Below are positions 1 to 62,090 of a DNA stretch of 62,090 nt, piece after piece (the stretch's first letter is position 1; every line of letters starts with the position of its first letter). The position numbers and the translations under genes are program-made. This stretch comes from a virus (lineage: Duplodnaviria > Caudoviricetes): the IMG/VR virus record IMGVR_UViG_3300021138_000028, positions 1 through 62,090 of that record; one strand, written 5' to 3'. The notes below the pieces were generated by a model, which had not been told where the DNA came from, did no database searches, and saw only the letters and a list, made by a program, of their open reading frames with translations.

Positions 1-84
1 GACCCAAGCATCACCACAGACCCGAGCGTTGTCACGGACCTCAGCATTGTCACGGACCTCAGCATCGCCGTAGACCCAAGCATT
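1..84. repeat. terminal direct repeat / assembly overlap (copy 1)
   Basis: 1-84 identical to 62007-62090; joining restores an in-frame minus-strand ORF. Confidence 0.85.
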
Positions 85-3267: not shown

Positions 3268-3402
3268 TCCTTTGTATGCCTTTTGAGTCTGAGCCTGCTT
3301 CGACGTGAATTCAGGCTCAAACCCATCAAACTACATATTTATAATACACTAATTCTTTGATTTCGTGCATTATTATTTTCATTTTATCGTGTGTTTTGCC
3401 AA

Positions 3403-5836: not shown

Positions 5837-6081
5837 ACGATCTTGTTATCCTTGAACCGTAGGCTTGAATAGTGGCACGATCGTACGCGTATCCAGCAGT
5901 TTGATTCCTTCCCCCATGTTTCTTTCCGTAGGCTTATGGCTTGGAACTTGTACCGGTACTTGGTCCCGTCTGGTAGCGTCTTAACGTAGTGACCGAATTT
6001 ATCTTTGGTGAATCCGTAGGTTGTTAGAATCGCGATAGCTTGCGCGATATTTTGGCTCTGTGTTGTCTTGGTTGTTCTCAT
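5812..6081 (-). CDS. hypothetical early protein (MRTTK...)
   Basis: AAGAGGA SD. Confidence 0.75.
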   Translation of the reverse strand: MRTTKTTQSQNIAQAIAILTTYGFTKDKFGHYVKTLPDGTKYRYKFQAISLRKETWGKESNCWIRVRSCHYSSLRFKDNKIVWPRQGYI

Positions 6082-6098
6082 TTGTTCCTCTTAAAATC

Positions 6099-6440
6099 CT
6101 AATAATTAGACAAACTAGTCCAACATGATGGACGGTGCCCGTCTGATGGACGCGCAAAATCTTCCACTACGTTGCCTGCGGCCAACCATATAGCATAGGT
6201 ATGTAGGGTTTCGGTTGTCATCTCGTCTATGGCTTCGACACCATAACTTTTAAGGCATTCGCGATAGAACGTGTCTGGCACTCGTGCTAATTGCCGATGG
6301 CACATACGTGCATAGAATAAACAGGCTTCCTCGCATTGTCCTTGGTGGTAGCACTCTTGAGCCATTGCTAGGGGAATGTAGAATTCAACGTCTGAGCCTC
6401 CCAGTGGCTGCACTTTGAATCTTGGTTTTGTTGTTCTCAT
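6099..6440 (-). CDS. hypothetical early protein (start revised to MRTTKPR)
   Basis: GAGGT SD; ATGA overlap with the upstream gene. Confidence 0.7.
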   Translation of the reverse strand: MRTTKPRFKVQPLGGSDVEFYIPLAMAQECYHQGQCEEACLFYARMCHRQLARVPDTFYRECLKSYGVEAIDEMTTETLHTYAIWLAAGNVVEDFARPSDGHRPSCWTSLSNY

Positions 6441-6739
6441 TTGGCTGATACCTCTAGTCGATCGTAAGTCGCGCAAGCATCCATATGTGCCTGATTCCAA
6501 AATATTCGCGCACGCTCCAAGCTGGTAGTACCTGCACATTCCCATAAGTTTAAGCCTCCACATAGGCGCAAGGATTCACGGAAATATGCACGTCTGATTT
6601 TAAGGAATAGTGGAGTAGATTTTATCCGTTTGTGACTATCTCCACCAGTCCAAGCTATCCGGTTGTACGTGATACCGTCAACCTTAACAGTTGTTAGTGT
6701 TGTATCACTCAGAGTAGGTTGTACGTCAAATCGCTTCAT
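6437..6739 (-). CDS. hypothetical early protein
   Basis: ATGA overlaps. Confidence 0.7.
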   Translation of the reverse strand: MKRFDVQPTLSDTTLTTVKVDGITYNRIAWTGGDSHKRIKSTPLFLKIRRAYFRESLRLCGGLNLWECAGTTSLERARIFWNQAHMDACATYDRLEVSAK

Positions 6740-7029
6740 AGCTTACCTACCGCCTTTAAGTGTCGTAGCTGATACTCACCTTCAGCTACGGCGCGGGCTG
6801 TCATCCCGATAGCGAAGACCCTTAGAAACTCGTCGGCTTCGGCTTGGGCTAGCCACCGATTTGTAAACTTGCCGCCGATCAGTGACTCGTTAGCTGGTTG
6901 GCCATTAACTACGAAGCGGTAGCGGTACATGTCGGGTGGTATCACTAGGTCGGTATCTACTTGTATATCGACCGAGACACAATGCGACTGCATAGCCTTA
7001 ATTACCTTCAGTGTTTCGGTTAGCGTCAT
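6736..7029 (-). CDS. hypothetical early protein (start MTLTET)
   Basis: TAATG coupling to a short upstream ORF. Confidence 0.65.
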   Translation of the reverse strand: MTLTETLKVIKAMQSHCVSVDIQVDTDLVIPPDMYRYRFVVNGQPANESLIGGKFTNRWLAQAEADEFLRVFAIGMTARAVAEGEYQLRHLKAVGKL

Positions 7030-7216
7030 TACCTTGTGCCCCATCGGGTCGCAGACTTTGCGCGTCTGGCTAGTCGGATAGTGTATTTAGCTGATGTTTT
7101 GGGCTTATCGCCGTATCGTCGTGTATTCATAGGTTGTGTATCCTCTTAACTCACTTGGAGCAGACTTCGGACTGCTCTTGTGGTTTACAACCTCTTGCGA
7201 GGTTGCCGTCACCATA

Positions 7217-7477
7217 CTAACTAACTAGCTCTCGCATCATATCATTTAGCTCTGCGATGCATAATTCCGTGCCTCCAAACTTGAAGCCATCAGGTGTACG
7301 GTCCTCAGCCATGCCGTACTGCTTAATGAACGAACGATACGGCGTTCTGCCCTTGTAGGACTGCATAAATCCGCAGGCCATTCTGTATAGTGGTTCGTCG
7401 TTGCCTATCCATAAGGCAATATTCCATGTCGCACGGTTCTTCCATCCGTTGTATCGCTCTGTCGTCTTAGTTGTCAT
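7217..7477 (-). CDS. conserved phage early protein (YNGW.N..TWN.ALW..NDE family, DUF7249-like)
   Basis: YNGWKNRATWNIALWIGNDEPLY motif. Confidence 0.75.
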   Translation of the reverse strand: MTTKTTERYNGWKNRATWNIALWIGNDEPLYRMACGFMQSYKGRTPYRSFIKQYGMAEDRTPDGFKFGGTELCIAELNDMMRELVS

Positions 7478-7861: not shown

Positions 7862-7890
7862 TTGTTTATCCTTGTCTTACTGACATATAT

Positions 7891-7921
7891 ATTATACACG
7901 TATGATAGCATATAGCAGTAA
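7891..7921 (-). promoter_or_regulatory. leftward sigma70-type early promoter
   Basis: TATAAT (7896-7891) ~30 nt upstream of ATG 7861. Confidence 0.55.
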
Positions 7922-8333
7922 GAATTTTTGCTATCCTGACCGCAATAATCTATAGCATCCATCCATCATATCAGTCCTGGGAAAGCCGTCCAGCGTGGCC
8001 GATCGGGACTGCTTGGATGTAACCGTCCCTATGTTCCTGCTCGGATAATCGGGTTACCTATAGGGGGTGGGGGTACCCAGCTTTTCCCCGATCGACTCTA
8101 GGCGACAAGCCTCCTTCCGCATCTCAACCTATTTTGGGATGCCGAAACTTTTTCCATTAAAATCGGAGGTTTAACTTTTGGAGACTTTTCGATCAAGGGT
8201 CGGATGATTAGTTGCCAAGTATCGCAGGTTCCCTTGTTATCAGAATTCATTGGTGATAAGATGTTGAAGGCCGCAGCCACTTTCGTAATCATGGAAGCGA
8301 CACCCAGACAGGTAGGATGCGGCCCTATCTCCT

Positions 8334-8393
8334 AACTCAAGAATCCAAAGGCAAAATTAAGAAACCAGAGTCAAAATCAAGAAACCAAAGGTT
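8334..8393. repeat. three imperfect 20-bp tandem repeats
   Basis: aactcaagaatccaaaggca / aaattaagaaaccagagtca / aaatcaagaaaccaaaggtt. Confidence 0.75.
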
Positions 8394-8440
8394 CAAATAC
8401 TGGGAAACCCGAAGGGGTAAACAAAATTTGGATTGTTGTA

Positions 8441-8477
8441 TTGACTTGTGGTGTCGAAAGGTCGTAGGATGTTGTTG
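8441..8477 (+). promoter_or_regulatory. sigma70-like promoter P1
   Basis: TTGACT-18-TAGGAT; 17-bp GTCGTAGGATGTTGTTG shared with P2. Confidence 0.7.
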
Positions 8478-8631
8478 AGCGAGATGTTCACACGTTAGCT
8501 TGCCCTGGTCGTTAGTCGTATTTCCTCCGGGGCTTTTAGGTTTTATTGGTGACTGGTCATTAAAGATCGGCGGTTCCTCCCTCTCAATTGGGCCTTGCGA
8601 GTTTTCATATCCTCGCAGGGTTCTTTTTTTT
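8477..8631 (+). ncRNA. candidate sRNA 1 (~155 nt) carrying two UUCCUCC anti-SD motifs
   Basis: lies between P1 and a terminator; no credible ORF. Confidence 0.5.
8591..8631 (+). terminator. intrinsic terminator
   Basis: ggccttgcgag...ctcgcagggtt followed by T8. Confidence 0.8.
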
Positions 8632-8641
8632 CTGTTAGGGG

Positions 8642-8678
8642 TTGACGGGACTTAATGGGATGTCGTAGGATGTTGTTG
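8642..8678 (+). promoter_or_regulatory. sigma70-like promoter P2
   Basis: TTGACG-18-TAGGAT. Confidence 0.7.
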
Positions 8679-8744
8679 CTTAGTTGATTGGGTTTGGTGT
8701 TCTCAGTGGTTCTGGATTGGGGTTCTCTTAGGAGAACCCCTTTT
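8678..8744 (+). ncRNA. candidate sRNA 2 (~67 nt)
   Basis: lies between P2 and a terminator; no ORF. Confidence 0.5.
8719..8744 (+). terminator. intrinsic terminator
   Basis: ggggttctc-ttag-gagaacccc perfect 9-bp stem plus TTTT. Confidence 0.8.
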
Positions 8745-8772
8745 CTGTTTATGGTGTTATGATGGTGTCGTC

Positions 8773-9090
8773 ATGGGATTTTTAAAGACTTATGTGTTGA
8801 CCACACAGGATGGTTTGTTTGTTTGTCGGACGTTGGAGGATCGGGATGTGAAGGAGTTCGGGAAGCGAATTCACTCTGACGGTGGTTTTGTTCATGGGGT
8901 ATTGAAGTCGACTTGGGTTCCTGTGGGACGGGTGGAGAGAATTTCGGCATTGGGGGATGTTAGGGGGATGAAGCCTTTGGAGACTAAGGCTGTGATTGAG
9001 TATTCGAAGGATCGAGAGGCATCGGAGGGTATTGAGAGCATAGATTGGGTGGTTAAGAACTACGGAGGTGTATCTGATGGTGTTGAGTGA
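8773..9090 (+). CDS. hypothetical protein
   Basis: 105 aa; TGnTATGAT 9 nt upstream, no SD. Confidence 0.65.
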   Translation: MGFLKTYVLTTQDGLFVCRTLEDRDVKEFGKRIHSDGGFVHGVLKSTWVPVGRVERISALGDVRGMKPLETKAVIEYSKDREASEGIESIDWVVKNYGGVSDGVE

Positions 9091-9694
9091 CGCTGGGAAT
9101 TATGTTGGGATAGATACGGTGGGTTCGACTTTTGAGAAGGCTCATGCTTTATATGATCTTGGTGTTAGGGTGGTTTTCAAGTATTCGGAGAACACTCATA
9201 CTTATCCTGAGAAGACTTTTGACCGGGATATGATTGTTGGGTTATCTACGATGGGCATTCGTCGTGGGTATATCTTTGAGCGATTTGATACGGTGGCTGA
9301 GTTTGCCGATGGGAATGCGGAGGTTTATGCTCGGATAGCGTCAGGGAAGATGAATGCTGACGGGGCTAGGCAGAATACTTTGTGTGTATTTTGTGTGGAT
9401 TTTGATGCGAGTGATGATGAGTTGGAGAACTTGATTGTGCCGTTCTTTGAGAAGGTACATGGGCTTATGAAGGCTGCTGGTTACTTCATTGGTGTTTATG
9501 GGTCAGGGAAAGTTTGTGCTCGGGTGAAAGGATTGGGGTTTGCTCATTGTTCGTATCTTGCTCAATCGAGTGGATGGGAAGGGACGAGTGAGTATGAGGA
9601 CTGGGATATTAAGCAGCATGAGAGTGCTACGGTATGTGGACTTGATGTTGATTGGATCGAAGTAAAACCTAGCGTGTTGGCTTATCTTGCATAG
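9068..9694 (+). CDS. endolysin, DUF1906 / GH25-like glycoside hydrolase (start likely ATG 9077)
   Basis: GIDT, FCVDFDA, GYFIGVYGSGKVC, YLAQSSGW motifs; GGAGGT SD. Confidence 0.75.
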   Translation: MYLMVLSDAGNYVGIDTVGSTFEKAHALYDLGVRVVFKYSENTHTYPEKTFDRDMIVGLSTMGIRRGYIFERFDTVAEFADGNAEVYARIASGKMNADGARQNTLCVFCVDFDASDDELENLIVPFFEKVHGLMKAAGYFIGVYGSGKVCARVKGLGFAHCSYLAQSSGWEGTSEYEDWDIKQHESATVCGLDVDWIEVKPSVLAYLA

Positions 9695-9728
9695 GTGGTG
9701 TATTCTGTTGTCGGCTGAGGGGTCTTAG

Positions 9729-10013
9729 ATGATGGTGGATTCCAAAGAGATGATAGGGTTAACAGCTACTTTCGGTGTTTTCTTTTTGTCCCTAGCCGCT
9801 GGTGGCTTGATTAGTTATTCGAAGATGGCTGGTAGGATGCTGGCACTTGAAGGGCAGGTTCAGGTATTGACTACAGCTTTGGCTGTCGCTCAGAAAACTG
9901 CGGACGAGATTAAGGGAATGGTTATAGCTATTCAGATCGCTCAAGCTAAGACTGATACAAGGGCAGAGACATTGCAAGCTATTCAAAGTGCCGTTCATCC
10001 AGGGCACCCTTAA
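9729..10013 (+). CDS. membrane protein, holin-like
   Basis: N-terminal TM plus coiled coil, next to the lysin. Confidence 0.55.
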   Translation: MMVDSKEMIGLTATFGVFFLSLAAGGLISYSKMAGRMLALEGQVQVLTTALAVAQKTADEIKGMVIAIQIAQAKTDTRAETLQAIQSAVHPGHP

Positions 10014-10040
10014 CGCTTTTATGTAGGGTACAAAGTACGC

Positions 10041-10304
10041 ATGGGTCGTACTGGTGGATGGATAAGTTGGCTGGTACTCTTGTTTACGCTACTCGCGTCG
10101 ACCTTGAGTGGCATTTCGTTGTATGTTGAGCTTCATGCTCCATCGAATGCCGAACTTGAATCCAAGATCAAAGGATTAGAATCTCAGAATGATGGGTTCA
10201 GGGAGCAGATCAAATACTTGCGCGGCAGGCAGGATCAGAATGATAAACTGCGGCAGGGTTTGAATGACCTCTATATAGAACTCAAGAAGGAAGGGAAATT
10301 ATGA
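10041..10304 (+). CDS. membrane-anchored coiled-coil protein
   Basis: N-terminal hydrophobic helix plus heptads. Confidence 0.6.
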   Translation: MGRTGGWISWLVLLFTLLASTLSGISLYVELHAPSNAELESKIKGLESQNDGFREQIKYLRGRQDQNDKLRQGLNDLYIELKKEGKL

Positions 10305-10507
10305 ATGGTTTAACTCAGGCAGAATGTCAGCAGTTTTTAGATCTTGGTGGTAATGCTCAGACTGATTTGGGCGCACCAAGTACGGTTGCAGCAACGGCTT
10401 TGGCTATTTGGTCTTGGATTGATGGCTTGACAAATGTAACCGATCATTTGAATAAGCTGAATTTGATTCGGGCCTTTATTCGTGCGAACGGTGGCACTAG
10501 CAACTAA
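10301..10507 (+). CDS. hypothetical protein
   Basis: ATGA overlap; AAGGA SD. Confidence 0.65.
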   Translation: MNGLTQAECQQFLDLGGNAQTDLGAPSTVAATALAIWSWIDGLTNVTDHLNKLNLIRAFIRANGGTSN

Positions 10508-10666
10508 CGATGGAAGAGAAGGATGAACGAGAAGATGAGTTTGAGATGGATCACTTTATCTCGGGCTGGATTATCTTGTTTGTGATCGGGTTCATCTTTG
10601 CTGTTGCGGTTTATCTCCTTGCTCCATTCTTGCCACCAGTTATCAGTTTGGGATAGGATGGTGGCT

Positions 10667-10846
10667 ATGAGCAAGGGGAGATTCTTGTTTGAGGTAGGTC
10701 TTTATGCTGGCATTGCTGGCTTGACAGCTTACTTATCTGCGCCAGATCCTATAACCAAGCGGGGTGTGGTGATGATTTTGATTCCGATTCTGACCGTAGT
10801 GAAGGCGAAACTTTCGCCTGGGAGTAAGACAGATGGTAATTCGTAG
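10667..10846 (+). CDS. small two-TM protein, holin candidate (start MSKGRF)
   Basis: two hydrophobic segments; TAGGAT 7 nt before ATG. Confidence 0.55.
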   Translation: MSKGRFLFEVGLYAGIAGLTAYLSAPDPITKRGVVMILIPILTVVKAKLSPGSKTDGNS

Positions 10847-11207
10847 TTTGATTTGCGCTGGTGCTTTAGCGGTAGCTGCTTGTTCGATGGGCCAGTCGCT
10901 TGCAGGTTATGTGAGTAAGGGACAAGCTTATGTGGTCAATGTGACTCCACTCAAGACTGTGTTTTCCAGAGGAAATGTATCGGTTAAGACTGATATGCTC
11001 GTAGGACTCAAGGCTACCGATCCTGCTGGTGCTTTCGGGTTTGGTGGGACACTGACTTATCAGGTCAATAAGACTTATGGGGTGTTCGTTGGACTGGCTG
11101 AGGTTCAGGATACGGCTACTTGGTCGACCAAGAATTTGAGCCTGCAACGGGCACGATTGTTCGTTGGGATTAGTGGACCGATCAAGCTAGGCATTTTTGG
11201 GCTCTAA
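10833..11207 (+). CDS. exported/membrane beta-rich protein
   Basis: signal-peptide-like N-terminus. Confidence 0.6.
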   Translation: MVIRSLICAGALAVAACSMGQSLAGYVSKGQAYVVNVTPLKTVFSRGNVSVKTDMLVGLKATDPAGAFGFGGTLTYQVNKTYGVFVGLAEVQDTATWSTKNLSLQRARLFVGISGPIKLGIFGL

Positions 11208-12058: not shown

Positions 12059-12090
12059 GGGGCTCGTGCTTTCACCACGATGCCCCTTTT
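12059..12090 (+). terminator. intrinsic terminator
   Basis: ggggctcgtg...cacgatgcccc plus TTTT. Confidence 0.65.
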
Positions 12091-12137: not shown

Positions 12138-12773
12138 ATGGCTCTATATGACAACTTACCGGACGAGACCCCGGCACAGAAGCGACCAAAGGGATTGACC
12201 GACCAAGAATGGATGCTTGTTGTTGAGTATTCGGCTTGCAAAAATAAGCGTCGTGCGCTAGATAAGGCGGGGTATCCCAAACACGCTTTGCATATTTTAG
12301 AACAACCTCACATTCGGATTGCTATTGCCGCTGAGGTCAAGAGCCAGATTTCTAGGGCTCGAAAGACGGCTGATGAAGTCATTAAGGCTTGCGAAGACGT
12401 GGTGTTCTCGGACATTGAGGATTTGATCTTTGTCGACGCTGAGGGCAAGATTCGATTGAAGCCATTGGACGAGATTCCTGACGATAAGAAGGCATTGATC
12501 CAAGGTTTGATTATTCGCAGGGATGGTTCGATTGACCTAAAGATCCCAGAGAAAGCGGTGATGATGCGGCTACTGATGACGGCACATGGGCTGCTTACGG
12601 ATCGTGTTGAACACGTTACCGAAGATAATGTGCTCCATAAGATGTATGCCGTCGCTATGGCTCGGAATGGGATCAGTGAATCGGTTGCAGGTTCGATCAT
12701 TATTGATGTTCAGAGGCAGATTGAACTTATGCCTCGAGCAACCAAGAATATGACACCAAAGGAAGATGAGTAA
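12138..12773 (+). CDS. terS: terminase small subunit
   Basis: LT..E...V.EY, A..KAGY, SDIEDL...LKPLDEIPDD...K...LL..HGLL.DRVE pattern; precedes terL. Confidence 0.8.
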   Translation: MALYDNLPDETPAQKRPKGLTDQEWMLVVEYSACKNKRRALDKAGYPKHALHILEQPHIRIAIAAEVKSQISRARKTADEVIKACEDVVFSDIEDLIFVDAEGKIRLKPLDEIPDDKKALIQGLIIRRDGSIDLKIPEKAVMMRLLMTAHGLLTDRVEHVTEDNVLHKMYAVAMARNGISESVAGSIIIDVQRQIELMPRATKNMTPKEDE

Positions 12774-13566
12774 GACCAACTTACCTATTCGATCCATGCG
12801 GGAAACCGTTGCGATCAAGAATATCACGAAGGATGCTATGGCGGCATTCCGATCAGCCCAATCTCCATCGGAGCGTCCGATGTGGCCTGATGAGTACATG
12901 GGCGATGATCCAGAATCAGCATTTAGGTTCGTAACTGAATGCTGGTGGACGGACAATGAAGCAGACAGGAAGATTGAACTGATTCCTAAGCGGGAATTTG
13001 TTTATGACTTCTGTGTGGAATGGGTGAATGCCTATCGACTTCGACAACCTATGATCTGCGAGAAGTCTCGACGTATCACGATTTCGTGGATATGCCGGGG
13101 ACTTGAAACTTGGGTCATGGGAAAGCAACGTGGATCGTGGATTATCATTGACCAAACTCATAAGAACGCTGCCGAACATCTGTGGCGAATTGATTTCTCG
13201 CTGAATCAGTTAAAGAACAGGAAGCCTGAGTACAACATTGAGTTCGAAACTCGTGGATCGGTTTTGATAAAGGAGCCGACGAACATCATTCTCGGAAATG
13301 GTTCGATGATTACGCAAGGTCACCAAGATGCAGGATCAGCACAAGGTAAAGGTAAGACGGGTGTTACACTTGAAGAGGTTTCAAAGTATGCGAACCCTAG
13401 TGAGTTTTGGGGACAAGCATTGATCGTTACTCAAGGTTCTGGTGAAGGGTCTGGTGGTTGGGTCTGTGGCATTGCCAATGCTTCTCCCAACGCTGACTGG
13501 CTCAAGATCAAGCATAACATGAGGGCTAGAGCCTTCCTTGGGATAGATGATAAGGATTGGATCTAA
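12766..13566 (+). CDS. terL: terminase large subunit, N-terminal ATPase half
   Basis: Walker A-like EKSRRITISW, Walker B GVTLEE. Confidence 0.75.
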   Translation: MSKTNLPIRSMRETVAIKNITKDAMAAFRSAQSPSERPMWPDEYMGDDPESAFRFVTECWWTDNEADRKIELIPKREFVYDFCVEWVNAYRLRQPMICEKSRRITISWICRGLETWVMGKQRGSWIIIDQTHKNAAEHLWRIDFSLNQLKNRKPEYNIEFETRGSVLIKEPTNIILGNGSMITQGHQDAGSAQGKGKTGVTLEEVSKYANPSEFWGQALIVTQGSGEGSGGWVCGIANASPNADWLKIKHNMRARAFLGIDDKDWI

Positions 13567-14438
13567 TGGCGCATCCTGGTCATCCAGTTAAGGGTACCGA
13601 TCTTGCCGATGGGACTCGATATGTGGCTATTCATTTCTCTGCCGATTCGACCAAAGGGCAGGAATGGGAGCAAAAGAAAGCTCGTGGTATTCCCGAAAGA
13701 TCGTGGAAACGTGAAATGGGGATGCACGATGATGTCTATGAAGGAGAACCCGTATTCTCCGATTACTCGGACGTTAGGCATTGTCCTTTCAGTATTCGTG
13801 AGACAGGTATTCCGATCTTTCCCAACTCGGTCTATATCGGTGGTTGGGATAATGGGCTCACTCCTGCCTTTACGCTACTTCAAATTACGCCACTATTCCA
13901 AGTCCAGTGTATTTTGGAGGTTACGTCGGGTGGTGATGATCCGATGGAAACGTTTGCGCCAAAGGTTCTCAATGCTATCGCTAGAAGAATCCCCGGCGCA
14001 TGGGACGAGGTTTACCATATTGGTGATCCGTCGATCTGGAACAGGACTGCAACGACGGGTGATAGTCCTGGACTATTAGCCAAGCGGAAATTTGGGATCA
14101 ACATTCGACGGGCAAGTAACGTTTGGGGCGTCAGACAGTCTGCCGTGACATGGCTTTTGACCGATCAGATTGATCCGAAGACTGAACGATTTATTCTTGA
14201 TGCCAAACATTGTCCAATTTTGAGAATTGGTTTCCAAGGCGCATATCAATTTGAAATTTCGCCTCGTGGAGATACGATTGGACCGGGGCGTATTCTTATG
14301 GAACCATTGAAAAATGGCTACTCACACGTACATGACGGGCTCCAAGCAGCAGCACAAGCGGCTAGAAAGTTCTGCGAGGGCAAATTAGCTCTCGGGATGG
14401 GCCTTCATCATGATACAATGCCAAAACGATGGCACTAA
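13566..14438 (+). CDS. terL: terminase large subunit, C-terminal RNase H-like nuclease half
   Basis: GWDNGLTPA, IGDPS, SHVHDGLQ; TAATG coupling and AAGGA SD. Confidence 0.75.
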   Translation: MAHPGHPVKGTDLADGTRYVAIHFSADSTKGQEWEQKKARGIPERSWKREMGMHDDVYEGEPVFSDYSDVRHCPFSIRETGIPIFPNSVYIGGWDNGLTPAFTLLQITPLFQVQCILEVTSGGDDPMETFAPKVLNAIARRIPGAWDEVYHIGDPSIWNRTATTGDSPGLLAKRKFGINIRRASNVWGVRQSAVTWLLTDQIDPKTERFILDAKHCPILRIGFQGAYQFEISPRGDTIGPGRILMEPLKNGYSHVHDGLQAAAQAARKFCEGKLALGMGLHHDTMPKRWH

Positions 14439-29715: not shown

Positions 29716-32700
29716 ATGTCTGATGAATCCCAGAAGCCTTTAACGAATCCCGATGATGTAATCAAGGCATACGGCATTCCAAAGTATCAACCGTCAATCA
29801 CTACACCGGATGATGCTATCAAGGCGTATGGAATTCCAAAATATGATGCAACAAAACCTTTAACGAATCCCGATGATGTAATCAAGGCATACGGCATTCC
29901 AAAGTATCAAAAAGGGGCTCAACCTCCATCCATACCGGGTGCAGGTTTCGGTACTCCATCGGGCACAATTGGCACTCCTTCTCAGCCGATGAGTCCTAAC
30001 GACATCTCGGGTGCGCCTGATGTTCCTCCTGCCACAATGCCCGAACTTGGGTTAGCCTCAAGCATCCTGCCTGAGTTGGTTCAACCATACGCTAAAGCAT
30101 TTCAGCAAGCGGCGAATCAACAACACGCTGCTCAAGTCGCACAGCAAGCACCACAGGCAAATCAGCAATACCAATCGGTGCAGAACTTTTTGAATCAAGC
30201 ACGACAGCGATTCAGTGGGAACATGGGCAATATGTTGCCTACACAGCAAGCATCACAGCCCGTACAAAATGGTGGCGATGAATTGCTTCAAAGTCTCGGA
30301 ATTACACCTCCGAACGTCAATCCACAACCTGCCAAGGTGAAGCCAAAGAACGTTCGAGAACTGTTCCAAGGACAAACGTTGCCGCAGATGCAACAAACGA
30401 TTCAGCAATCGGCACAACAACCTCAGAATTGGGAAGTGCCGGGAATGGAGAACCATAACGTTGCTCCATCGTTAGAGGATGCTTCTAAGGCATTTCATGA
30501 CCAGATTGGAGTAGCCAATGACTATCTAAATAAAATCGGTCCCATTGGTCAGTTGTCAGCATTCGTCAAAGGGCTATTCCCGAATACTTCCAATAATGTT
30601 GACGCCATTCAAAAAGCACAATCGGGTGTTGGTGGCGCAATGAGCAATCTAGTCAATCCATTTATGCTGATGGATATGGTCACGAAAGGTAATACCGTCG
30701 ACCAAGTGATCCAAGCGGCACAAGACTTTCAAAATAGCAACTCTCCGATGGAAGGATTATCCAATGCTGTTCTGCATAATGCGGTAACGGGTTCGGCTGT
30801 AAATCCAAACTTGCAATTCTTAATGCCGTCGACGGTCACCAAAGATGTTATGGGTACATCGGCTCAAGGTATGCCAATTGTCAAGGCCCAAGAGTTTGAC
30901 CCACAAGCATACGGTGAAGCGGCAGGTAACGCTTTCATCATGGCAAAGGGAGGACTAGAAGGTCTTCATGCTATGCGTGGGGTTCCCAAGGCTGGGCCAG
31001 TAAGCGAAACGATTACTCCACCACCATTCCCGCAGGAATCAGTAGCCGAACCCGCTTCTGTGACTCAAAATCAATACTTGACGCACGATGATTTACTTAA
31101 CAATGTTAAGAATTCAATTAAAGAAATTCAAGATTATGTGGTTCAAAATGCACCAACACCAGAACACGCTGAATACTGGTCTACCCCGCTAAATGTGACG
31201 GGGATGGGAGCTTTCAGTACCGCAAAATCAGCTATTGATACGTTAAAGGATTACGCAAAACAACTAAAAGGTGAAGCAAGAACTAATGCAATTGACTCAA
31301 TAAATAAAGTAGAAAGCGTGAATCAAGCAGGAGGGGAATCAGGTTCACTATCTACACAACGTATATCCCCTGAAGGTGAACCATTTACGGTTCCAGAAGA
31401 AAAGGTGATTCAAGGTGTAGCCGATGCGCTAGTTCATCAATTGAAAGGGACACCAGATATTAATGGTTCGCGCTCTATACTTTTATCGCGATTCATGAAC
31501 GAATTGCAAAGTGGACAATACTCTGCGGAGATATTCAGCAAAATACAAAAGCTAATTGGTGAAGATAATCCTGAATTAGCAAAAAGCACGAACCCAGATG
31601 AATTAAGAGCAATAGCTGAACAGCAAGGCAAGAATGCGCTAGATAAAATTATGCAAGAAGGGGGTAAGCCTCAAGCCACAACTCCTACTCCTGAGCCGCA
31701 ATCGGCTCCAACTAAGCCACAAACGAATTCTGCACCTAAGCCTTATACCGCAAGCAATTGGCGGCAAGTAGCGCAAGAGAATATTGAGACTGCGAACCAT
31801 GCGTTGCAGAATATCAATCAGCGTGACGACCTAACCAACAGCCAAAAGCGTGGGTTGGCAATGGAACTTCGTGAGGTACGAAGTCAGTTGCAGGATTCAC
31901 TTGACTTCAATGAGCCTGCGCCATTTATGATTGACGAAATGAACGATGCTCACCAAGCATCGGGCATGGATGTTCATGATCTAGTTAAGCAACTTGTTAA
32001 CCACCAGCGGGATGTTTACGATATTCATCCAGATGAAATCCCTGCGGCAACGGACAAGATGTATTCTGACTTACGAGAATCGGGCGGCAAGATTACTCCC
32101 GATATGTTCTCGCATTATGAGGGTCGCATTGAACCCGAATCAGACATTCAGGAAAACCCAGCGCAAGAAAATACTGAAACTCATCTTGAGAATGGATCGG
32201 TAATTAAGCCTGAACCTGTAAGCGAAGCAGAACCAACGGAATCGAATCCTACTGATACGACTCGTGAGTCGATCACAACGAAACCTGCCAAGCCTAAAGC
32301 TGAACCTAAGCCACAGAAACCTCGTGGTGGAGCAAAAGCACTTATCGGAATGTCTCCAGATAGTGATGTTTTTGATCCGTTCAGCGACGACTACGATCCA
32401 GGGATTGTAGAGGCAGTTCTCAATCAGTTCGGGCCTCCTGATACTACTTATGACTACCACGAGGCAGGAAGTGCAGCAAGCCATTATCTTCAAGCGGCAC
32501 AAGAGGCACAGAGAGATGAAGACCTATATTTTGAGCAACGTGCAAACCGCTATGACACCTTTGGTAGTGAACTTAAAAATGTATTAAGCGATCCTCAAGT
32601 AATGAATTGGGGTGGTTGGAACAAATGGTCGAAAGTATACGGAAAAAGTAAATACGGAATAGCAAATAAAGTTATTTGGAAGCCAACTGGATTCATTAAA

Positions 32701-35700
32701 GGTGTCCCTTCTAACGGGATTGACCCAATTGTCAATGAAATGCTTGCGGAACACGCAACAAGGAATTACGGTGACCCAGAGTACCGATTAGCAAATAGCG
32801 AACAACATAAAGAAGCGTTAAATTCGGGCAATAAAGGCACAACAAAAATCGGGAAAAAACTTGACCGTATTCTTTCCAATCGAGATACGCCTCCATCTGG
32901 ATCAAAGATGGTTAGTGAAGTTGCATTGGATGACTATGGCGGGAATCGCCATATGTGGCCTTTGCCTCTTGTCCTAGACTTTATCAAGTCTGGTGACATT
33001 CCAATGACTGATCCAAGGCTCGAAGCCCCAACAAAAAGAAGAGGATTTACAAGTGCAGAAACAGAGCAAGCCCAACGATACTATTCCAAGCGTCCCAACG
33101 CTAAAATCACCAACGACCTCGACGTTAACCGTACCACCCAACCCTCCGGTGCCACAAGTGAACCAGTCGGTAACAATCAACCCACCGAAGTACGACCCAC
33201 AAGTGGAAGCGATCAAGCAACAACTTCGGGCAGGACGAATGCCGTCGTTGAAAACCCTGTTGGGGATCATAGCGGACGCGAAAATGGAGCAAATGAACCA
33301 GCACGATCAAATGGTTCATCAGAACCGAATGCAAAGCCAAGCACAAAGCAACTCAACCCAGACAGCGTTGCCGCAGTTGCCGCAGCTAGGCAAGACATTC
33401 AAGACGCCACCAACTTCTTAGCTCGGCTCGGAGCCAAAGTCAGTAGCGGCGTTGACATTACTGAGATCCCAGAAGCACTTACCCATCTTGGCAAGATGGC
33501 TAAAGCATGGGTAACTATTGGTGAAGTTCATGCACTCGATCTTGTTGACAAGGTAAATGATTGGCTAAAAGAGAACAACCTTACGATTTCGAAGGATGCT
33601 CTCAATAAAGTTCTTGCCGACCATGATCTTCTTCATCCATCTGAGTCTACGGAAAGTGCAGAAGCAAGCCAAGCGGTTACGCCACTACCTTTGAACGAAA
33701 ATGGTCGACCAACAACAACGGGTGGATCACGACGAGTCATCGAGGAACACGTTGCCGCTGGCGCATTGAAGCCTATCCCTAAAGGAACTTGGGATTCACC
33801 ACAGGAAACGATCAAGAAAGCTCAAGAATGGGTCGCAAACGGTGGTTCTCCTGATGCGCTCCTAGATGAGTTGGAGCAGAATAAGCGTCCAGCAAACGGC
33901 ATTGAGGTTCGTATTCTGGAAGAAGGCGATCTTGCCAAGCAACGGGCTATCAACAAGGCTCAATCAGAAGCATCGTCAACCAATGATCCTGCAAGGAAAG
34001 CGGCACTTCAAGCAGAAGTTTCTCGGCTGTCTGACGACTTACAGCAGTTCAAAGAACGACAACAAAAGATAGCGTCTCAAGCAGGAAACGTACTTGCTCA
34101 GTTCCAAGGGAATCGTGAGATTGACACTGGAAACTTTGCTCAAGTTCAAGCGGCAATAGAGAAGTCTCAAGGACGTAGCCTGTCAGCACCAGAACGAGAA
34201 CAGTTGCATCATATAATTGAGCAGTTAAAGTCTGACGATGCAGAACACAGGGACAATCTTGCAAGCCTGACTGAGAAACTTCACCAGCATGAACAGACTA
34301 TTCGTGAGACACAAGCACAGCTCGAACTCAATAAGTCGGTGCGAGAAACCCGAACCAAGGCTACTCGTGCATCGCTCTATGACGAAAGACAGAAGTTATT
34401 CCAAGATCTTGCTCGGGTCGGTTCACGTTTAAGTTCCAATCCTGCCGATGAAGTAGCAAACGGTTTTGTTATCCTCGGGAAACTGGCAAAGAACATTGCG
34501 GCAGAAGGGGTCTTGTCGATTGACGACTTGATGAGCAAGATCAAGACTCAACTTGCCGACAACAAGATCGATTTCCATTTCACAAAGAAGGATCTCATTG
34601 ACTCCATTATTGGAGACAACGGTAAAGAGAAACCAGTACAAAGCGAACAGCAAAAGAATTCCGCTGATGTTGTCAAAATGGCAAAGCTCCATGATGCCAT
34701 TGATGACATCTGGGAGAATGGGAACAAGGAATCTCCACCCAAAGTAAAGCAACCCGAACATCCAGAGGTAGCAAAGCTCAAAGCTGAATTCAAGTCAATC
34801 AAAAAGGCAACGGCACCTGCTAATGCTTCGCTTGATTACGTGGTTAAGAATGCGGCTGAAACGGGCAATTCCGATCTTAATGCACTCCTAGAGAAAGTCA
34901 AAAAGTCTTATCCGAATGCGACTCTTCGAGATGTTGTCGAATCGCTGTCCCCAAAAGAAGGCCGACCCAATACGCTTACACCTGAAAGCGCGAACCTGCG
35001 GGACGCACGAATGCAGGCCGATCTGACAAAGAAAATCGCAGATCAAGAAGTTAAGACTCCACGAAAGAACCCGTTAGAGAAACCTATTCCTGACAGTCCA
35101 GAGGTCACTCGGCTCAAGGGCCTTCTGGATGAAGCGCGGAAGAATAATCCTCAACCCAAGGTCTATAAGCCAACGGGCAATACAGTGAAGGACACGCTTA
35201 ATACGACCAAGGTTGGATCGTTCTCCGATCTCGTCAAAGAAGTTCAAGCCAAGCATCCTGAAATGAGCGAAGAGGACATTTACAATGCACTCTTAGAAAA
35301 GAAAGCGTCGGCTCAAGAATCGGCACGTCAAGTCACGAATCGGACTATTCGCAGCCAAGCGAAAATGATCAAAGATATTCGTGATCTTGAATCACAACTC
35401 AAGATGGGTAAGGCCGCTGAGTCAATCAAGGAGGCTGCCAAGACCAAGGATGCTGAATCGCAAGCACTTGAAACTAGACGAAAGAATCTCCAAAGTCTTG
35501 TTCGCAGCATGAGTCAATCGCAAAAGCCTACGAACCTTGCGGCAGTTTTGGCAGAAGGAGCTCGGTTTATAATTATGGCGAATCCAAGGTCTATTGCCCA
35601 TATTGCTCTTGCTGGTCCTGCGACAATGGCTATGGATGAGGCAGGCAAGATTCCTGCTGGAATTCGCAATACCGTCAACTCAGGTTTATACAAAGTATCT

Positions 35701-37002
35701 GGTGGCAAACTTGGAACGAATCAAATCCTCAATGCTGGGCCAAATTTGCCTGATTATATAAGGTCTGCCGCTACTGCACTTAAAGTCAAAGATGCGGCGA
35801 AATACGCATGGCGAGGTCAGAGTGAAGCGGAAATGCAACTCAATCAATCGCCCGATCAATACTATGGATCACATGGTCTTCAAACTCCTGCTAATAAAAT
35901 CAGAAACATGATTCGCAACCCAGAAGCACGAACCACGCAAAACACATTGAAAACTATTGAAGAACTCGAACATAGTGTTGGAACTTTGCATGGTGCCCTT
36001 CAACAACTTACAGCTAAGAATCCAGGCATGATGCGAACGGTCTTGGAGCAATCAAAGCTAATGGCGCATAACCTAAGTGAGCCTGAATTGCAAAGTCTTA
36101 GCCCAAGCCTCAAGAACCTCACAGGCAAACAGCTTCGATCTGCGGCTCAAACATATCTTGCGGAAAATCCAACCGCCGAAACAAAACAGAAAGGACTCGA
36201 TTATGGCAATCGTATTGCCAATATGAGCGACAACAACATCAATAAGCTTGTGGCAAACGTGCGAAGCAGTCTCGGGAAGACGGGTGAAACCGTCAATGAA
36301 ATCGGAGGCAAGAATAATGCGTCCAAACTTGCTAATGCTGGCATTACTTACGCTATGCCCGTTGCCAAGCCAAGTATCAATCAAGCGTTTATAAACGCTG
36401 AATATTCTCCGCTCGGTATAGCTCGTGGTGGATTTTCCCTTTTGTCTGATAGTTTGCACAATGCGACAAAGAACCTAGAACCTGGACAAAAGCCTTCTGC
36501 TAGTGCTTGGTCTAAATTGTCCGACGTGCTTCATGACACAACAACGAAACTTACGACAGAAGAGAAAGCGAATGCACAACGATTATTCGACCATGGGCTC
36601 GTAGGCACTGGCATGATTTACCTCGGAGCGCAAATGTACCTAAAGAACATGGCTACAGGTTCTTATCTTGGGCCGCAAGATAAAGAGCGGGCCGCAAACG
36701 CAAAGAGAGCAAAGCAGAATGCTACTGGCATCGTGCCTTCAGTTCTTGACACTGACAAAGGAATGGGTGTCGTTCCTGTTGGTGGAGGGATCGGACTACC
36801 ACTTCATATGTTTGGTGCGCTTGGGGCTGCTTTACTTGCTGGTGTCAACTTCGCAAAGCAACTTCTCGACGGACATCCTAATGAAGCACCAGAGGCTTTA
36901 GCTCATAGAATATATGAATCGTTACTGAACGACTACAATCCGATCAGTCCAATCATGAGCGCAATGGACAAGTTAAAGAATCTTTTCAAGCCAAAGAAGT
37001 AA
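29716..37002 (+). CDS. giant internal virion / DNA-transfer protein (2428 aa)
   Basis: size, position and composition typical of podovirus ejectosome proteins. Confidence 0.65.
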   Translation: MSDESQKPLTNPDDVIKAYGIPKYQPSITTPDDAIKAYGIPKYDATKPLTNPDDVIKAYGIPKYQKGAQPPSIPGAGFGTPSGTIGTPSQPMSPNDISGAPDVPPATMPELGLASSILPELVQPYAKAFQQAANQQHAAQVAQQAPQANQQYQSVQNFLNQARQRFSGNMGNMLPTQQASQPVQNGGDELLQSLGITPPNVNPQPAKVKPKNVRELFQGQTLPQMQQTIQQSAQQPQNWEVPGMENHNVAPSLEDASKAFHDQIGVANDYLNKIGPIGQLSAFVKGLFPNTSNNVDAIQKAQSGVGGAMSNLVNPFMLMDMVTKGNTVDQVIQAAQDFQNSNSPMEGLSNAVLHNAVTGSAVNPNLQFLMPSTVTKDVMGTSAQGMPIVKAQEFDPQAYGEAAGNAFIMAKGGLEGLHAMRGVPKAGPVSETITPPPFPQESVAEPASVTQNQYLTHDDLLNNVKNSIKEIQDYVVQNAPTPEHAEYWSTPLNVTGMGAFSTAKSAIDTLKDYAKQLKGEARTNAIDSINKVESVNQAGGESGSLSTQRISPEGEPFTVPEEKVIQGVADALVHQLKGTPDINGSRSILLSRFMNELQSGQYSAEIFSKIQKLIGEDNPELAKSTNPDELRAIAEQQGKNALDKIMQEGGKPQATTPTPEPQSAPTKPQTNSAPKPYTASNWRQVAQENIETANHALQNINQRDDLTNSQKRGLAMELREVRSQLQDSLDFNEPAPFMIDEMNDAHQASGMDVHDLVKQLVNHQRDVYDIHPDEIPAATDKMYSDLRESGGKITPDMFSHYEGRIEPESDIQENPAQENTETHLENGSVIKPEPVSEAEPTESNPTDTTRESITTKPAKPKAEPKPQKPRGGAKALIGMSPDSDVFDPFSDDYDPGIVEAVLNQFGPPDTTYDYHEAGSAASHYLQAAQEAQRDEDLYFEQRANRYDTFGSELKNVLSDPQVMNWGGWNKWSKVYGKSKYGIANKVIWKPTGFIKGVPSNGIDPIVNEMLAEHATRNYGDPEYRLANSEQHKEALNSGNKGTTKIGKKLDRILSNRDTPPSGSKMVSEVALDDYGGNRHMWPLPLVLDFIKSGDIPMTDPRLEAPTKRRGFTSAETEQAQRYYSKRPNAKITNDLDVNRTTQPSGATSEPVGNNQPTEVRPTSGSDQATTSGRTNAVVENPVGDHSGRENGANEPARSNGSSEPNAKPSTKQLNPDSVAAVAAARQDIQDATNFLARLGAKVSSGVDITEIPEALTHLGKMAKAWVTIGEVHALDLVDKVNDWLKENNLTISKDALNKVLADHDLLHPSESTESAEASQAVTPLPLNENGRPTTTGGSRRVIEEHVAAGALKPIPKGTWDSPQETIKKAQEWVANGGSPDALLDELEQNKRPANGIEVRILEEGDLAKQRAINKAQSEASSTNDPARKAALQAEVSRLSDDLQQFKERQQKIASQAGNVLAQFQGNREIDTGNFAQVQAAIEKSQGRSLSAPEREQLHHIIEQLKSDDAEHRDNLASLTEKLHQHEQTIRETQAQLELNKSVRETRTKATRASLYDERQKLFQDLARVGSRLSSNPADEVANGFVILGKLAKNIAAEGVLSIDDLMSKIKTQLADNKIDFHFTKKDLIDSIIGDNGKEKPVQSEQQKNSADVVKMAKLHDAIDDIWENGNKESPPKVKQPEHPEVAKLKAEFKSIKKATAPANASLDYVVKNAAETGNSDLNALLEKVKKSYPNATLRDVVESLSPKEGRPNTLTPESANLRDARMQADLTKKIADQEVKTPRKNPLEKPIPDSPEVTRLKGLLDEARKNNPQPKVYKPTGNTVKDTLNTTKVGSFSDLVKEVQAKHPEMSEEDIYNALLEKKASAQESARQVTNRTIRSQAKMIKDIRDLESQLKMGKAAESIKEAAKTKDAESQALETRRKNLQSLVRSMSQSQKPTNLAAVLAEGARFIIMANPRSIAHIALAGPATMAMDEAGKIPAGIRNTVNSGLYKVSGGKLGTNQILNAGPNLPDYIRSAATALKVKDAAKYAWRGQSEAEMQLNQSPDQYYGSHGLQTPANKIRNMIRNPEARTTQNTLKTIEELEHSVGTLHGALQQLTAKNPGMMRTVLEQSKLMAHNLSEPELQSLSPSLKNLTGKQLRSAAQTYLAENPTAETKQKGLDYGNRIANMSDNNINKLVANVRSSLGKTGETVNEIGGKNNASKLANAGITYAMPVAKPSINQAFINAEYSPLGIARGGFSLLSDSLHNATKNLEPGQKPSASAWSKLSDVLHDTTTKLTTEEKANAQRLFDHGLVGTGMIYLGAQMYLKNMATGSYLGPQDKERAANAKRAKQNATGIVPSVLDTDKGMGVVPVGGGIGLPLHMFGALGAALLAGVNFAKQLLDGHPNEAPEALAHRIYESLLNDYNPISPIMSAMDKLKNLFKPKK
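29737..29910 (+). repeat. three 60-bp-period coding repeats; units 1 and 3 share 54 identical bp
   Basis: LTNPDDVIKAYGIPKY / ITTPDDAIKAYGIPKY / LTNPDDVIKAYGIPKY. Confidence 0.9.
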
Positions 37003-61710: not shown

Positions 61711-62090
61711 TCTTCGTCTCCTTTTTCGGATGCTGCCTGAGTCCCAAAAATAGCGGTGTCTCTCTTGGCGAACAGTTCAATGTAAAGACCATACTCTTCG
61801 ATTTGTGCCTCCGTGTAACCTTCTTTCTGCCCAATATCCTTGTATCGTTTCTGCCATGTGCTAATCCTATGACAATGGCATCCGATTTGGATATAACCAT
61901 GCTTGCAGTGAGTCAATGAATGGCGAGTGCCTAAAATGTGAAGTGGGGGTAATTCCCAAGCATTGCCACAGACCCGAGCATCGCCGTAGACCTGAGCATT
62001 GCCATAGACCCAAGCATCACCACAGACCCGAGCGTTGTCACGGACCTCAGCATTGTCACGGACCTCAGCATCGCCGTAGACCCAAGCATT
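61707..62090 (-). CDS. 3' part of the hexapeptide-repeat protein that starts at 477
   Basis: repeats run in frame into ...IQIGCHCH..W...GYT..QIEEY. Confidence 0.85.
   Translation of the reverse strand, partial: NAWVYGDAEVRDNAEVRDNARVCGDAWVYGNAQVYGDARVCGNAWELPPLHILGTRHSLTHCKHGYIQIGCHCHRISTWQKRYKDIGQKEGYTEAQIEEYGLYIELFAKRDTAIFGTQAASEKGDEE
62007..62090. repeat. terminal direct repeat / assembly overlap (copy 2)
   Basis: identical to 1-84. Confidence 0.85.

What the first reader, a model, noticed from the sequence alone, without database searches (positions are those of the whole stretch)
8642..8744. Candidate sRNA 2 complementary to the start codons of the two MRTTK early genes
Seen: a second ORF-less unit whose promoter shares 17 identical bp (GTCGTAGGATGTTGTTG) with the first, ending in a perfect 9-bp terminator. 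TTGGGTTTGGTGTTCTCA (8688-8705) matches 6422-6439 at 16/18 and its last 12 nt match 6068-6080 with one bulge, i.e. it is antisense to AUGAGAACAAC at both starts. Inference: a co-regulated sRNA pair shuts off the early cassette, which would explain why unrelated genes share first codons. Caveat: G/T-rich low complexity raises the chance of a spurious match.
Basis: partly seen in the sequence, partly recalled or inferred. Interest (0 to 1): 0.72.

Follow-up and report, generated by a model that had tools for sequence, protein, structure and literature searches.

The report
Short terminated RNA unit before phage late genes
A small promoter-plus-terminator unit sits directly in front of the lysis and packaging genes of an uncultured freshwater phage; it probably makes a short RNA, but the idea that this RNA silences two early genes is weakly supported.

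Summary
The sequence facts hold. A TTGACG-N18-TAGGAT promoter-like site lies at 8642-8671. It shares an exact 17-mer with a twin at 8461-8477. A perfect 9-bp GC-rich hairpin plus T-tract (8719-8749) follows. The 18-mer at 8688-8705 matches 6422-6439 at 16/18 and 6068-6080 with one bulge.

By identity the match is nominally unusual: 5 of 400 shuffles and 1 of 102 composition-matched natural windows do as well. By pairing energy it is not. Twenty-two transcript sites pair at least as well as the best target, and start regions are not enriched.

In the only relative found (98-99% identical) the RNA is unchanged. One target start there reads MTSTTQ, and the other match falls to 14/18. The two MRTTK starts are near-identical 15-nt repeats at the edges of a swappable gene cassette (6067-6424), which explains the shared codons without an RNA.

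The unit ends 27 nt before an operon that starts with lysis genes and runs into terminase and structural genes. My best reading (0.4) is a lambda PR'/6S-like terminated leader, one of two tandem modules. A free-standing regulatory RNA remains possible. No expression data and no diverged relative were reachable.

The parts
8642..8671 (+). P2: promoter-like site, TTGACG (8642-8647), 18-bp spacer, TAGGAT (8666-8671)
   Evidence: sequence
8662..8678 (+). 17-mer GTCGTAGGATGTTGTTG, identical to 8461-8477; covers the -10 element and the predicted start
   Evidence: 2 exact copies, 0 of 100 shuffles gave 3 or more hits
8678..8745 (+). predicted ~65-70-nt RNA. The 5' end is inferred from the -10 spacing and the 3' end from the T-tract; neither end is measured
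   Evidence: MFE -24.1 kcal/mol, z -2.71, 2 of 200 shuffles fold as well; most of the energy is the terminator hairpin
8688..8705 (+). G/U-rich stretch proposed as seed. It is part of an internal repeat: GATTGGG at 8686-8692 and 8715-8721, GTTCTC at 8699-8704 and 8722-8727
   Evidence: the repeat was read by eye
8719..8749 (+). T2: intrinsic terminator, 9-bp stem, loop TTAG, tail TTTTCTGTT
   Evidence: (I7)
8441..8632 (+). Twin module: P1 (TTGACT-N18-TAGGAT, 8441-8470), then a ~60- or ~150-nt RNA with hairpin+T-tract at 8502-8542 and a stronger one at 8590-8632. TTCCTCC motifs at 8522-8528 and 8574-8585
8234..8262 (+). P0: TTGTTA-N17-TGaTAAGAT, a member of the GGTnnTAnGATGnTG motif set
   Evidence: sequence; the motif was defined after seeing the sites
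8755..8763 (+). P3: extended -10-like TGtTATGAT, between T2 and the first late ATG
   Evidence: (D2); sequence
8334..8391 (+). three direct repeats spaced 20 bp apart (AAGAAnCCAnAG core), 50-107 bp upstream of the -35 of P1
   Evidence: D1
8773..9090 (+). first gene of the rightward operon (105 aa, no family), no Shine-Dalgarno upstream. It is followed by an endolysin-like gene (9068-9694), membrane proteins, a lipoprotein and terS (12138)
6422..6440 (-). proposed target B: start of the 113-aa gene (ATG at 6440-6438), 16/18 to the seed
6068..6081 (-). proposed target A: start of the 89-aa gene (ATG at 6081-6079), 12 nt with one bulge
6067..6424 (-). exchangeable cassette, replaced by 473 other bases in the relative. 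Its two edges carry the ATGAGAACAAC(A/C)AA repeats
   Evidence: joint 6066 to 6425
7883..7899 (-). leftward promoter-like GTGTATAATATATATGT (perfect TATAAT). A second copy with 2 mismatches lies at 3333-3349

Best explanation
8642-8749 is a real small transcription unit. A sigma-70-type promoter (P2) probably fires at about 8678, and an intrinsic terminator (T2) stops the RNA after about 65-70 nt.

Its main role is probably in cis. It is the last of two tandem promoter-plus-terminator modules placed directly in front of the rightward operon, which runs from lysis genes into terminase and virion genes. It would work like the lambda PR'-tR' arrangement. The promoter makes a short terminated RNA by default. 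The late genes are reached only when polymerase is made terminator-resistant, by a phage factor not yet identified, or when it starts at the weak extended -10 site P3 just behind T2. On this view the short RNA is first of all a by-product. It may have gained trans targets, as the PR' leader RNA StxS has.

Shown: the sequence elements, their positions, and the content of the downstream operon. Inferred: that P2 fires, that T2 terminates, and that read-through is regulated.
For: Position. T2 ends at 8749 and the first ATG of the rightward operon is at 8773.

Operon content. That operon opens with an Rv2525c-like glycoside hydrolase (PF08924, 1.1e-17; a PHROG endolysin family at 1.1e-4). Then come three proteins with membrane-spanning stretches and a lipoprotein with a VAAC lipobox, then terS (PF03592), a weak terL match, an SU10-type portal and an adaptor. 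This is the lambda late order, lysis then packaging then virion, as recalled from textbook knowledge.

Further terminators. Terminator-like hairpins lie inside the operon at 12087 and 21570. A terminator-resistant polymerase would be useful there too.

Shared core. Both modules have an identical 17-bp core promoter and initial transcribed sequence, found nowhere else in the genome. This is more than sigma recognition requires and would suit a factor that loads at the promoter.

Contrasting leftward promoters. The leftward promoters differ, with a perfect TATAAT. The two directions could therefore be controlled separately.

Precedent. The StxS abstract (PMC7547250) states that PR' is terminated at tR' immediately downstream, and that this by-product RNA became a regulatory sRNA. 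Passages of bioRxiv 10.1101/2024.10.31.621285 report two Hfq-bound small RNAs, the ~194-nt 6S RNA and the ~63-nt LPR2, close together at the lambda late operon. They also report that the 6S terminator is overridden by Q with NusA.
Against: No antiterminator, sigma factor, repressor or integrase family was found among 95 ORFs scanned with Pfam or 55 scanned with PHROGs. The gene upstream is divergent, unlike lambda Q.

I found no convincing -10-like pause element in the first 20 nt after P2 (inspection).

Two tandem promoter-terminator modules are not needed for a simple gate.

P3 plus the missing Shine-Dalgarno before 8773 suggests the late mRNA may start behind T2, nearly leaderless. In that case T2 would only insulate, and the short RNAs would be made for their own sake.

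Promoter-like hits are not enriched in the region (12 found, 9.0 +/- 2.4 expected).

There is no expression evidence of any kind.
Confidence: 0.4

Rival explanations
1. First reader's model. sRNA2 (with sRNA1) is a trans-acting antisense RNA. Its G/U-rich stretch pairs across the AUG and codons 2-6 of the two MRTTK early genes and blocks their translation. Selection for this pairing keeps the shared first codons.
For: The 16/18 match lies exactly on a start codon and is the only such match in the genome. Equal matches antisense to a start region are rare in controls: 5 of 400 shuffles, 13 of 1826 natural windows, and 1 of 102 composition-matched windows. The stretch is predicted to be only weakly structured. 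There is precedent of kind: passages of the lambda RIL-seq preprint say the late-operon 6S RNA has one lambda early-operon target.
Against: By energy, 22 sites pair at least as well as target B and 59 at least as well as target A, without enrichment at starts. The start regions rank 4th and 13th of 94. Of 2939 internal windows, 169 reach -27.3 kcal/mol or better, against -26.9 for B. The longest uninterrupted pairing is 8 nt. In the relative the RNA is unchanged, target A is gone (MTSTTQ) and B' keeps 14/18, a value that 37 of 102 control windows had as their best match. The shared starts coincide with cassette junctions. G/T-richness is regional, not specific to the RNA: GC skew is +0.32 over 8001-10000. 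The seed also duplicates the terminator's own 5' arm.
Confidence: 0.12
2. Free-standing regulatory RNA with other targets. P0-P3 form one promoter family, so sRNA1 and sRNA2 are made together with the late mRNA, which starts at P3. T2 only separates the units. sRNA2 acts on host or other phage transcripts not identifiable here.
For: The 15-nt motif GGTnnTAnGATGnTG occurs on the + strand at 8252, 8460, 8661 and 8753, and only once more (9828) in 62 kb. That is 5 hits against 1.12 expected, with 0 of 100 shuffles giving 5 or more. The motif was derived from these sites, so the test is circular for them. P3 has TGn before its -10, and gene 8773 lacks a Shine-Dalgarno. The twin RNA carries two TTCCTCC anti-Shine-Dalgarno motifs and a weak full-length resemblance to the mmgR model (16.7 bits, gathering 41). 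Tandem self-contained units are hard to explain unless the RNAs matter. Weak full-length resemblance to NsiR1 (20.7 bits).
Against: Both Rfam scores are far below gathering. The host is unknown, so no target search was possible. There is no conservation signal: the relative is identical here, but so is almost all of 8608-11000, with only 2 differences. The T-tract has only 4 uninterrupted T.
Confidence: 0.25
3. No dedicated RNA. P2 is a chance or decayed duplicate of P1. The hairpin is simply a second terminator or insulator that stops transcription from upstream before the late operon, or the repeated 15-17-mers are protein-binding sites on DNA.
For: Promoter-like sites are no more frequent than in shuffles. 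The 18-bp spacer and TAGGAT are suboptimal. The repeated motif set and the three 20-bp-spaced repeats look like protein-binding arrays.
Against: -35, spacer length and -10 are all kept in both copies, and each copy is followed by its own strong terminator. A duplicate with no function would not be expected to keep an exact 17-mer.
Confidence: 0.15

Closest known systems
Lambda-type late leader: PR' promoter, 6S RNA (~194 nt), terminator tR', Q antitermination; includes StxS of Stx phages
   Same: A promoter lies directly before the lysis, packaging and virion operon, with an intrinsic terminator a short distance downstream, so a short RNA is the default product. StxS (abstract) and lambda 6S/LPR2 (passages) show that such RNAs can also act in trans, and that two small RNAs can lie side by side there.
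   Different: No Q-like gene was found and the upstream gene is divergent. There are two tandem modules with identical core promoters, and the RNA is much shorter. The phage shows no integrase or repressor match and has no cultured relative. There is no sequence similarity.
NsiR1 (Rfam RF02596), ~60-nt cyanobacterial sRNA encoded in tandem copies, each with its own promoter
   Same: Similar size, a G/U-rich 5' part followed by a terminator hairpin, and tandem units with individual promoters (passages of PMC9045159). The covariance model aligns end to end over 8691-8742.
   Different: The score is 20.7 bits against a gathering score of 35.7 (E 0.2-0.66), so it is not a member. The two units here differ in their RNA bodies. 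The host is unknown.
Short conserved junction sequences at gene boundaries of mosaic phage genomes (recalled from the lambdoid-phage literature; no paper was read here)
   Same: Two unrelated genes share a ~15-nt sequence exactly where two haplotypes exchange a cassette.
   Different: Here the junction lies inside the first five codons rather than between genes. Only two haplotypes were seen.
Protein antiterminators of lytic phages that use host polymerase, e.g. Thermus phage P23-45 gp39
   Same: A lytic phage lets host polymerase pass intrinsic terminators to reach later genes (PMC3351154; only the abstract start in the search listing was seen).
   Different: No homologue was identified here. 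That system is not tied to a promoter-proximal leader.

Membership tests
Lambda PR'-tR' type terminated late leader | sigma-70-type promoter directly upstream of the lysis/packaging/virion operon | tested here: met
   TTGACG-N18-TAGGAT at 8642-8671; operon content. This is a consensus match only; activity was not measured.
Lambda PR'-tR' type terminated late leader | intrinsic terminator between the promoter and the first late gene | tested here: met
   9-bp GC-rich hairpin plus T-tract at 8719-8749; first ATG at 8773
Lambda PR'-tR' type terminated late leader | Q-type antiterminator gene, normally just upstream | tested here: not met
   No antiterminator family among the Pfam hits of 95 ORFs or the PHROG hits of 55 ORFs. 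The upstream neighbour is divergently oriented. Most ORFs have no family, so an unrecognised factor is not excluded.
Lambda PR'-tR' type terminated late leader | -10-like pause element in the initial transcribed region and a factor-binding element at the promoter | tested here: inconclusive
   I saw no clear TAnnnT hexamer in the first ~20 nt after 8678. The exact 17-mer shared by P1 and P2 could be a binding element.
Lambda PR'-tR' type terminated late leader | regulated read-through of the terminator | not testable with these tools
   No RNA data: no RNA run is listed for this sequence.
Rfam RF02596 (NsiR1) | covariance-model score at or above gathering (35.7 bits) | tested here: not met
   20.7 bits
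Trans-encoded base-pairing sRNA (generic) | own promoter and intrinsic terminator, no ORF | tested here: met
   (sequence level only)
Trans-encoded base-pairing sRNA (generic) | target complementarity beyond chance | tested here: inconclusive
   Identity metric: 5 of 400, 13 of 1826 and 1 of 102 controls do as well. Energy metric: 22 and 59 equal-or-better sites, with no enrichment at starts.
Trans-encoded base-pairing sRNA (generic) | conserved seed with co-varying targets in relatives | tested here: not met
   Only one relative, 98-99% identical. The RNA is identical, target A is lost, and B is reduced to 14/18. No diverged relative's DNA was reachable.
Trans-encoded base-pairing sRNA (generic) | the RNA is detectably made | not testable with these tools
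   only DNA contigs were available

The most novel reading that the evidence does not exclude
An RNA-based early-to-late switch in a lytic phage that lacks any recognisable transcription factor. Two small RNAs would be driven by the same promoter family as the late operon. They would gate that operon through their terminators. They would also shut down earlier genes in trans: sRNA1 through anti-Shine-Dalgarno motifs, and sRNA2 through pairing with the A/C-rich first codons that several genes share (MRTTK, MTTK).
Probability: 0.1. Interest if true: 0.7.

Novelty: new member of a known kind. Interest (0 to 1): 0.35.

Why it matters
This phage is far from anything cultured. Nucleotide and portal searches of 50,697 phage records found nothing, and most of its proteins have no family.

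If the two tandem promoter-terminator modules do gate its late operon, that would extend the lambda-style 'terminated leader' logic to an unrelated, apparently lytic freshwater phage. It would also point to an unrecognised antitermination factor among its orphan genes.

If the RNAs act in trans instead, they would add to the few known phage regulatory RNAs.

The negative part matters too. Start-codon complementarity of a G/U-rich RNA in a genome with A/C-rich gene starts is easy to over-read. Here the shared first codons are better explained by cassette exchange.

Tried and rejected
Relatives.
- Single-protein scans of viral contigs with the two genes next to the unit, alignment-based scans and the exact 17-mer returned only one related record, 98-99% identical. 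The 17-mer also gave one unrelated single hit.
- The metagenome scan gave 3 weak loci. Two of them are parts of DUF1501 proteins and are not syntenic.
- The genome scan gave none.
- A relaxed promoter pattern gave 66 stretches, about what chance predicts by my rough estimate. Only the known relative has two copies, and none of the other 65 resembles the window by blastn. The tblastx step returned nothing and may not have run.
- 51 loci sharing the DUF7249 gene share no part of the 911-nt gap beyond matches of 26 nt or less.
- Protein searches show that a relative about 77% and 52% identical in the first two late genes exists on a 50,110-bp contig of another archive.

Expression. No RNA holder is listed. 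Laying four DNA runs showed only the two known haplotypes.

Other checks.
- Haplotype differences are uninformative about constraint. There are 0 in 8608-8772, but only 2 in 8608-11000.
- The shared tail TTTTCTGTT of both terminators is not significant (25 of 100 shuffles).
- The Atlas search on the 105-aa protein gave nothing usable.
- Gene A has no homologue beyond itself.
- Of 17 relatives of gene B that I read, out of 29 found, none starts MRTTK; 2 start MRT.
- The earlier-findings tool was not open.
- complex prediction and structure prediction were not used.

Full report
WHAT THE WINDOW IS

The window is a whole virus record of 62,090 bp whose ends repeat. The repeat is an exact 84-bp overlap, and open reading frames run off both ends. 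I therefore read it as a circular assembly.

It has no nucleotide match in 50,697 phage records. Its portal has no tblastn match there either. DNA runs that hold it are labelled freshwater metagenomes.

- A leftward block of small genes, mostly without a family, runs from 7861 down and across the ends.
- A rightward block starts at 8773. It opens with a 105-aa orphan, then an Rv2525c-like glycoside hydrolase (endolysin-like).
- Next come three proteins with membrane-spanning stretches and a lipoprotein with a VAAC lipobox.
- Then come terS, a weak terL match, an SU10-type portal and adaptor, and a 2428-aa orphan.
- No integrase, repressor, sigma factor, polymerase or antiterminator family was found.

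The finding lies in the 911-nt gap (7862-8772) between the two blocks.

THE OBSERVATION

All stated features are present.
- The 17-mer occurs exactly twice, at 8461-8477 and 8662-8678.
- Both copies sit in TTGAC(T/G)-N18-TAGGAT.
- The hairpin at 8719-8740 is a perfect 9-bp stem followed by TTTTCTGTTT.
- 8688-8705 matches 6422-6439 at 16/18. This is the only such match in the genome.
- Its last 12 nt match 6068-6080 with one extra T.
- Both genes begin ATGAGAACAAC.
- The predicted 71-nt RNA folds to -24.1 kcal/mol (z -2.7), nearly all of it from the terminator. This leaves the G/U-rich part weakly structured.

IS THE COMPLEMENTARITY MEANINGFUL?

Two metrics disagree.

By ungapped identity, a 16/18-or-better match antisense to a start region is rare.
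- It was seen in 5 of 400 dinucleotide shuffles of the RNA. Any such match anywhere in the genome appeared in 11.75% of shuffles.
- It was seen in 13 of 1826 natural 68-nt windows, in 3 of 47 windows with G+T>=0.65, and in 0 of 9 with G+T>=0.70.
- It was seen in 1 of 102 thinned windows with G+T>=0.66.

That is a nominal 1-6%, before allowing for a threshold chosen after seeing the match.

By nearest-neighbour energy with G-U pairs, the seed binds target B at -17.3 kcal/mol and target A at -16.0.
- 22 distinct sites in the phage's sense transcripts are at least as good as B, and 59 are at least as good as A.
- Only 2 and 4 of these lie at starts, where 5.8% would be expected by length.
- With the 41-nt 5' part, the start region of B ranks 4th and that of A ranks 13th of 94. 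Of 2939 internal windows, 169 reach -27.3 or better.

The + strand is G/T-rich over the whole 8-12 kb stretch, and gene starts are A/C-rich. Besides the two MRTTK genes, two others start MTTK. The seed also repeats the terminator's own 5' arm (GATTGGG...GTTCTC occurs twice). Its fit to GAGAAC may therefore be a side effect of that repeat.

THE RELATIVE AND THE SHARED FIRST CODONS

The only relative found is a 24-kb record, 98-99% identical where alignable. The same haplotype occurs as a contig in one DNA run. It has an identical sRNA2.

Its leftward block differs by whole cassettes.
- Window 6067-6424 is replaced by 473 other bases.
- Window 6699-7024 is absent.
- Window 7134-7473 is replaced by 274 bases.

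The first exchange has its junctions 15 nt inside each MRTTK gene. The conserved flank supplies ATGAGAACAACAAAAC to whatever gene follows. In the relative this is an unrelated gene starting MRTTKRP, which matches the seed at 14/18. The window's cassette carries its own ATGAGAACAACCAAG for the next gene. In the relative that next gene starts MTSTTQ.

So the two MRTTK starts are near-identical direct repeats at the edges of a swappable cassette. The sister haplotype keeps the RNA while losing one 'target' and weakening the other.

Relatives of gene B do not share the start. Of 17 that I read, out of 29 found, none begins MRTTK and 2 begin MRT.

The partner RNA's anti-Shine-Dalgarno stretch ranks the two genes 24th and 39th of 94. 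The pair therefore does not converge on them.

WHAT THE UNIT MOST LIKELY IS

The gap holds an ordered series on the + strand.
- P0 (8234-8262).
- A hairpin without a T-tract (arms at 8269-8278 and 8315-8324, I6).
- Three repeats spaced 20 bp apart (8334-8391).
- P1 (8441-8470).
- Two hairpin-plus-T-tract sites (8502-8542 and 8590-8632).
- P2 (8642-8671).
- T2 (8719-8749).
- An extended -10-like site, P3 (8755-8763).
- The ATG at 8773, which has no Shine-Dalgarno.

The leftward promoters look different, with a perfect TATAAT.

A promoter and a strong terminator placed immediately before a lysis, packaging and virion operon is the lambda PR'-tR' layout. Two papers show that such by-product RNAs exist and can gain trans roles. 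These are the StxS abstract and passages on lambda 6S and LPR2. Terminator-like hairpins inside the operon (12087 and 21570) would also call for terminator-resistant transcription. I therefore put a cis 'terminated leader' first, at 0.4.

Several points count against it.
- No Q-like gene was found.
- I saw no clear pause element.
- The duplication of the module is unexplained.
- Late mRNA may start at P3 behind T2.

If late mRNA does start at P3, the two RNAs are made for their own sake (0.25).

COMPARISON WITH KNOWN FAMILIES

Rfam gives only sub-threshold resemblances. These are NsiR1 at 20.7 bits against 35.7 for sRNA2, and mmgR at 16.7 bits against 41 for the twin. Neither is a membership.

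The unit works like a lambda late leader in layout, but it fails the Q-gene test.

LIMITS

There is no RNA evidence, no known host, and no diverged relative's DNA. A relative about 77% identical exists in another archive but could not be fetched.

VERDICT

It is a new member of a known kind, of moderate-to-low interest.

Noticed in passing
window 7160-7213 (-): Type-P5 twister ribozyme, 50.1 bits against a gathering score of 37.6. It lies inside the leftward operon just downstream of the DUF7249 gene (7217-7477). The whole 7134-7473 cassette is replaced in the relative. None of 20 other DUF7249 loci (of the 51 found) has a twister.
   Followed up: partly
window 8477-8632 (+): The twin RNA has TTCCTCC motifs at 8522-8528 and 8574-8585, complementary to GGAGGAA ribosome-binding sites. 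It also has a weak full-length match to the mmgR model (16.7 bits, gathering 41). Its best predicted partners are start regions of genes at 58-60 kb and 47.9 kb that carry AAGGAGGAA. It contains an earlier hairpin plus T-tract (8502-8542), so it may be ~60 nt rather than ~150 nt.
   Followed up: partly
window 8334-8391 (+): Three direct repeats exactly 20 bp apart (AAGAAnCCAnAG core), upstream of P1. This looks like a protein-binding array.
   Followed up: no
window 8252-8767 (+): The motif GGTnnTAnGATGnTG occurs four times within 516 bp and only once more in the genome. It is a possible rightward promoter family or the binding site of one factor. The motif was defined after seeing the sites.
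   Followed up: partly
window 6067-6424, 6699-7024, 7134-7473: Three cassette-level differences from the 98-99% identical relative in the leftward block. The flanks are 90-98% identical.
   Followed up: partly
window 7875-7923: A 14-nt inverted repeat (TCTTACTGACATAT / ATATAGCAGTAAGA) brackets the leftward TATAAT promoter and may be an operator.
   Followed up: no
window 12766-14438 (+): The large-terminase match is weak and confined to the 266-aa ORF 12766-13566 (phrog_2, 5.3e-5). A 293-aa ORF with no family overlaps its end. The terminase may be split or very divergent.
   Followed up: no
window 29716-37002 (+): A 2428-aa ORF with no PHROG or Pfam match. Most virion-region proteins also have no family.
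   Followed up: no
window 1-84 and 62007-62090: The 84-bp terminal overlap consists of imperfect 18-nt tandem units (read by eye). Open reading frames run off both ends.
   Followed up: no
window 8667-8689 versus the NsiR1 consensus printed: GGATGTTGTT, inside the shared 17-mer, is identical to positions 2-11 of the NsiR1 consensus line. With the predicted start at 8678 it would lie mostly outside the RNA. It may be coincidence in G/T-rich sequence.
   Followed up: no
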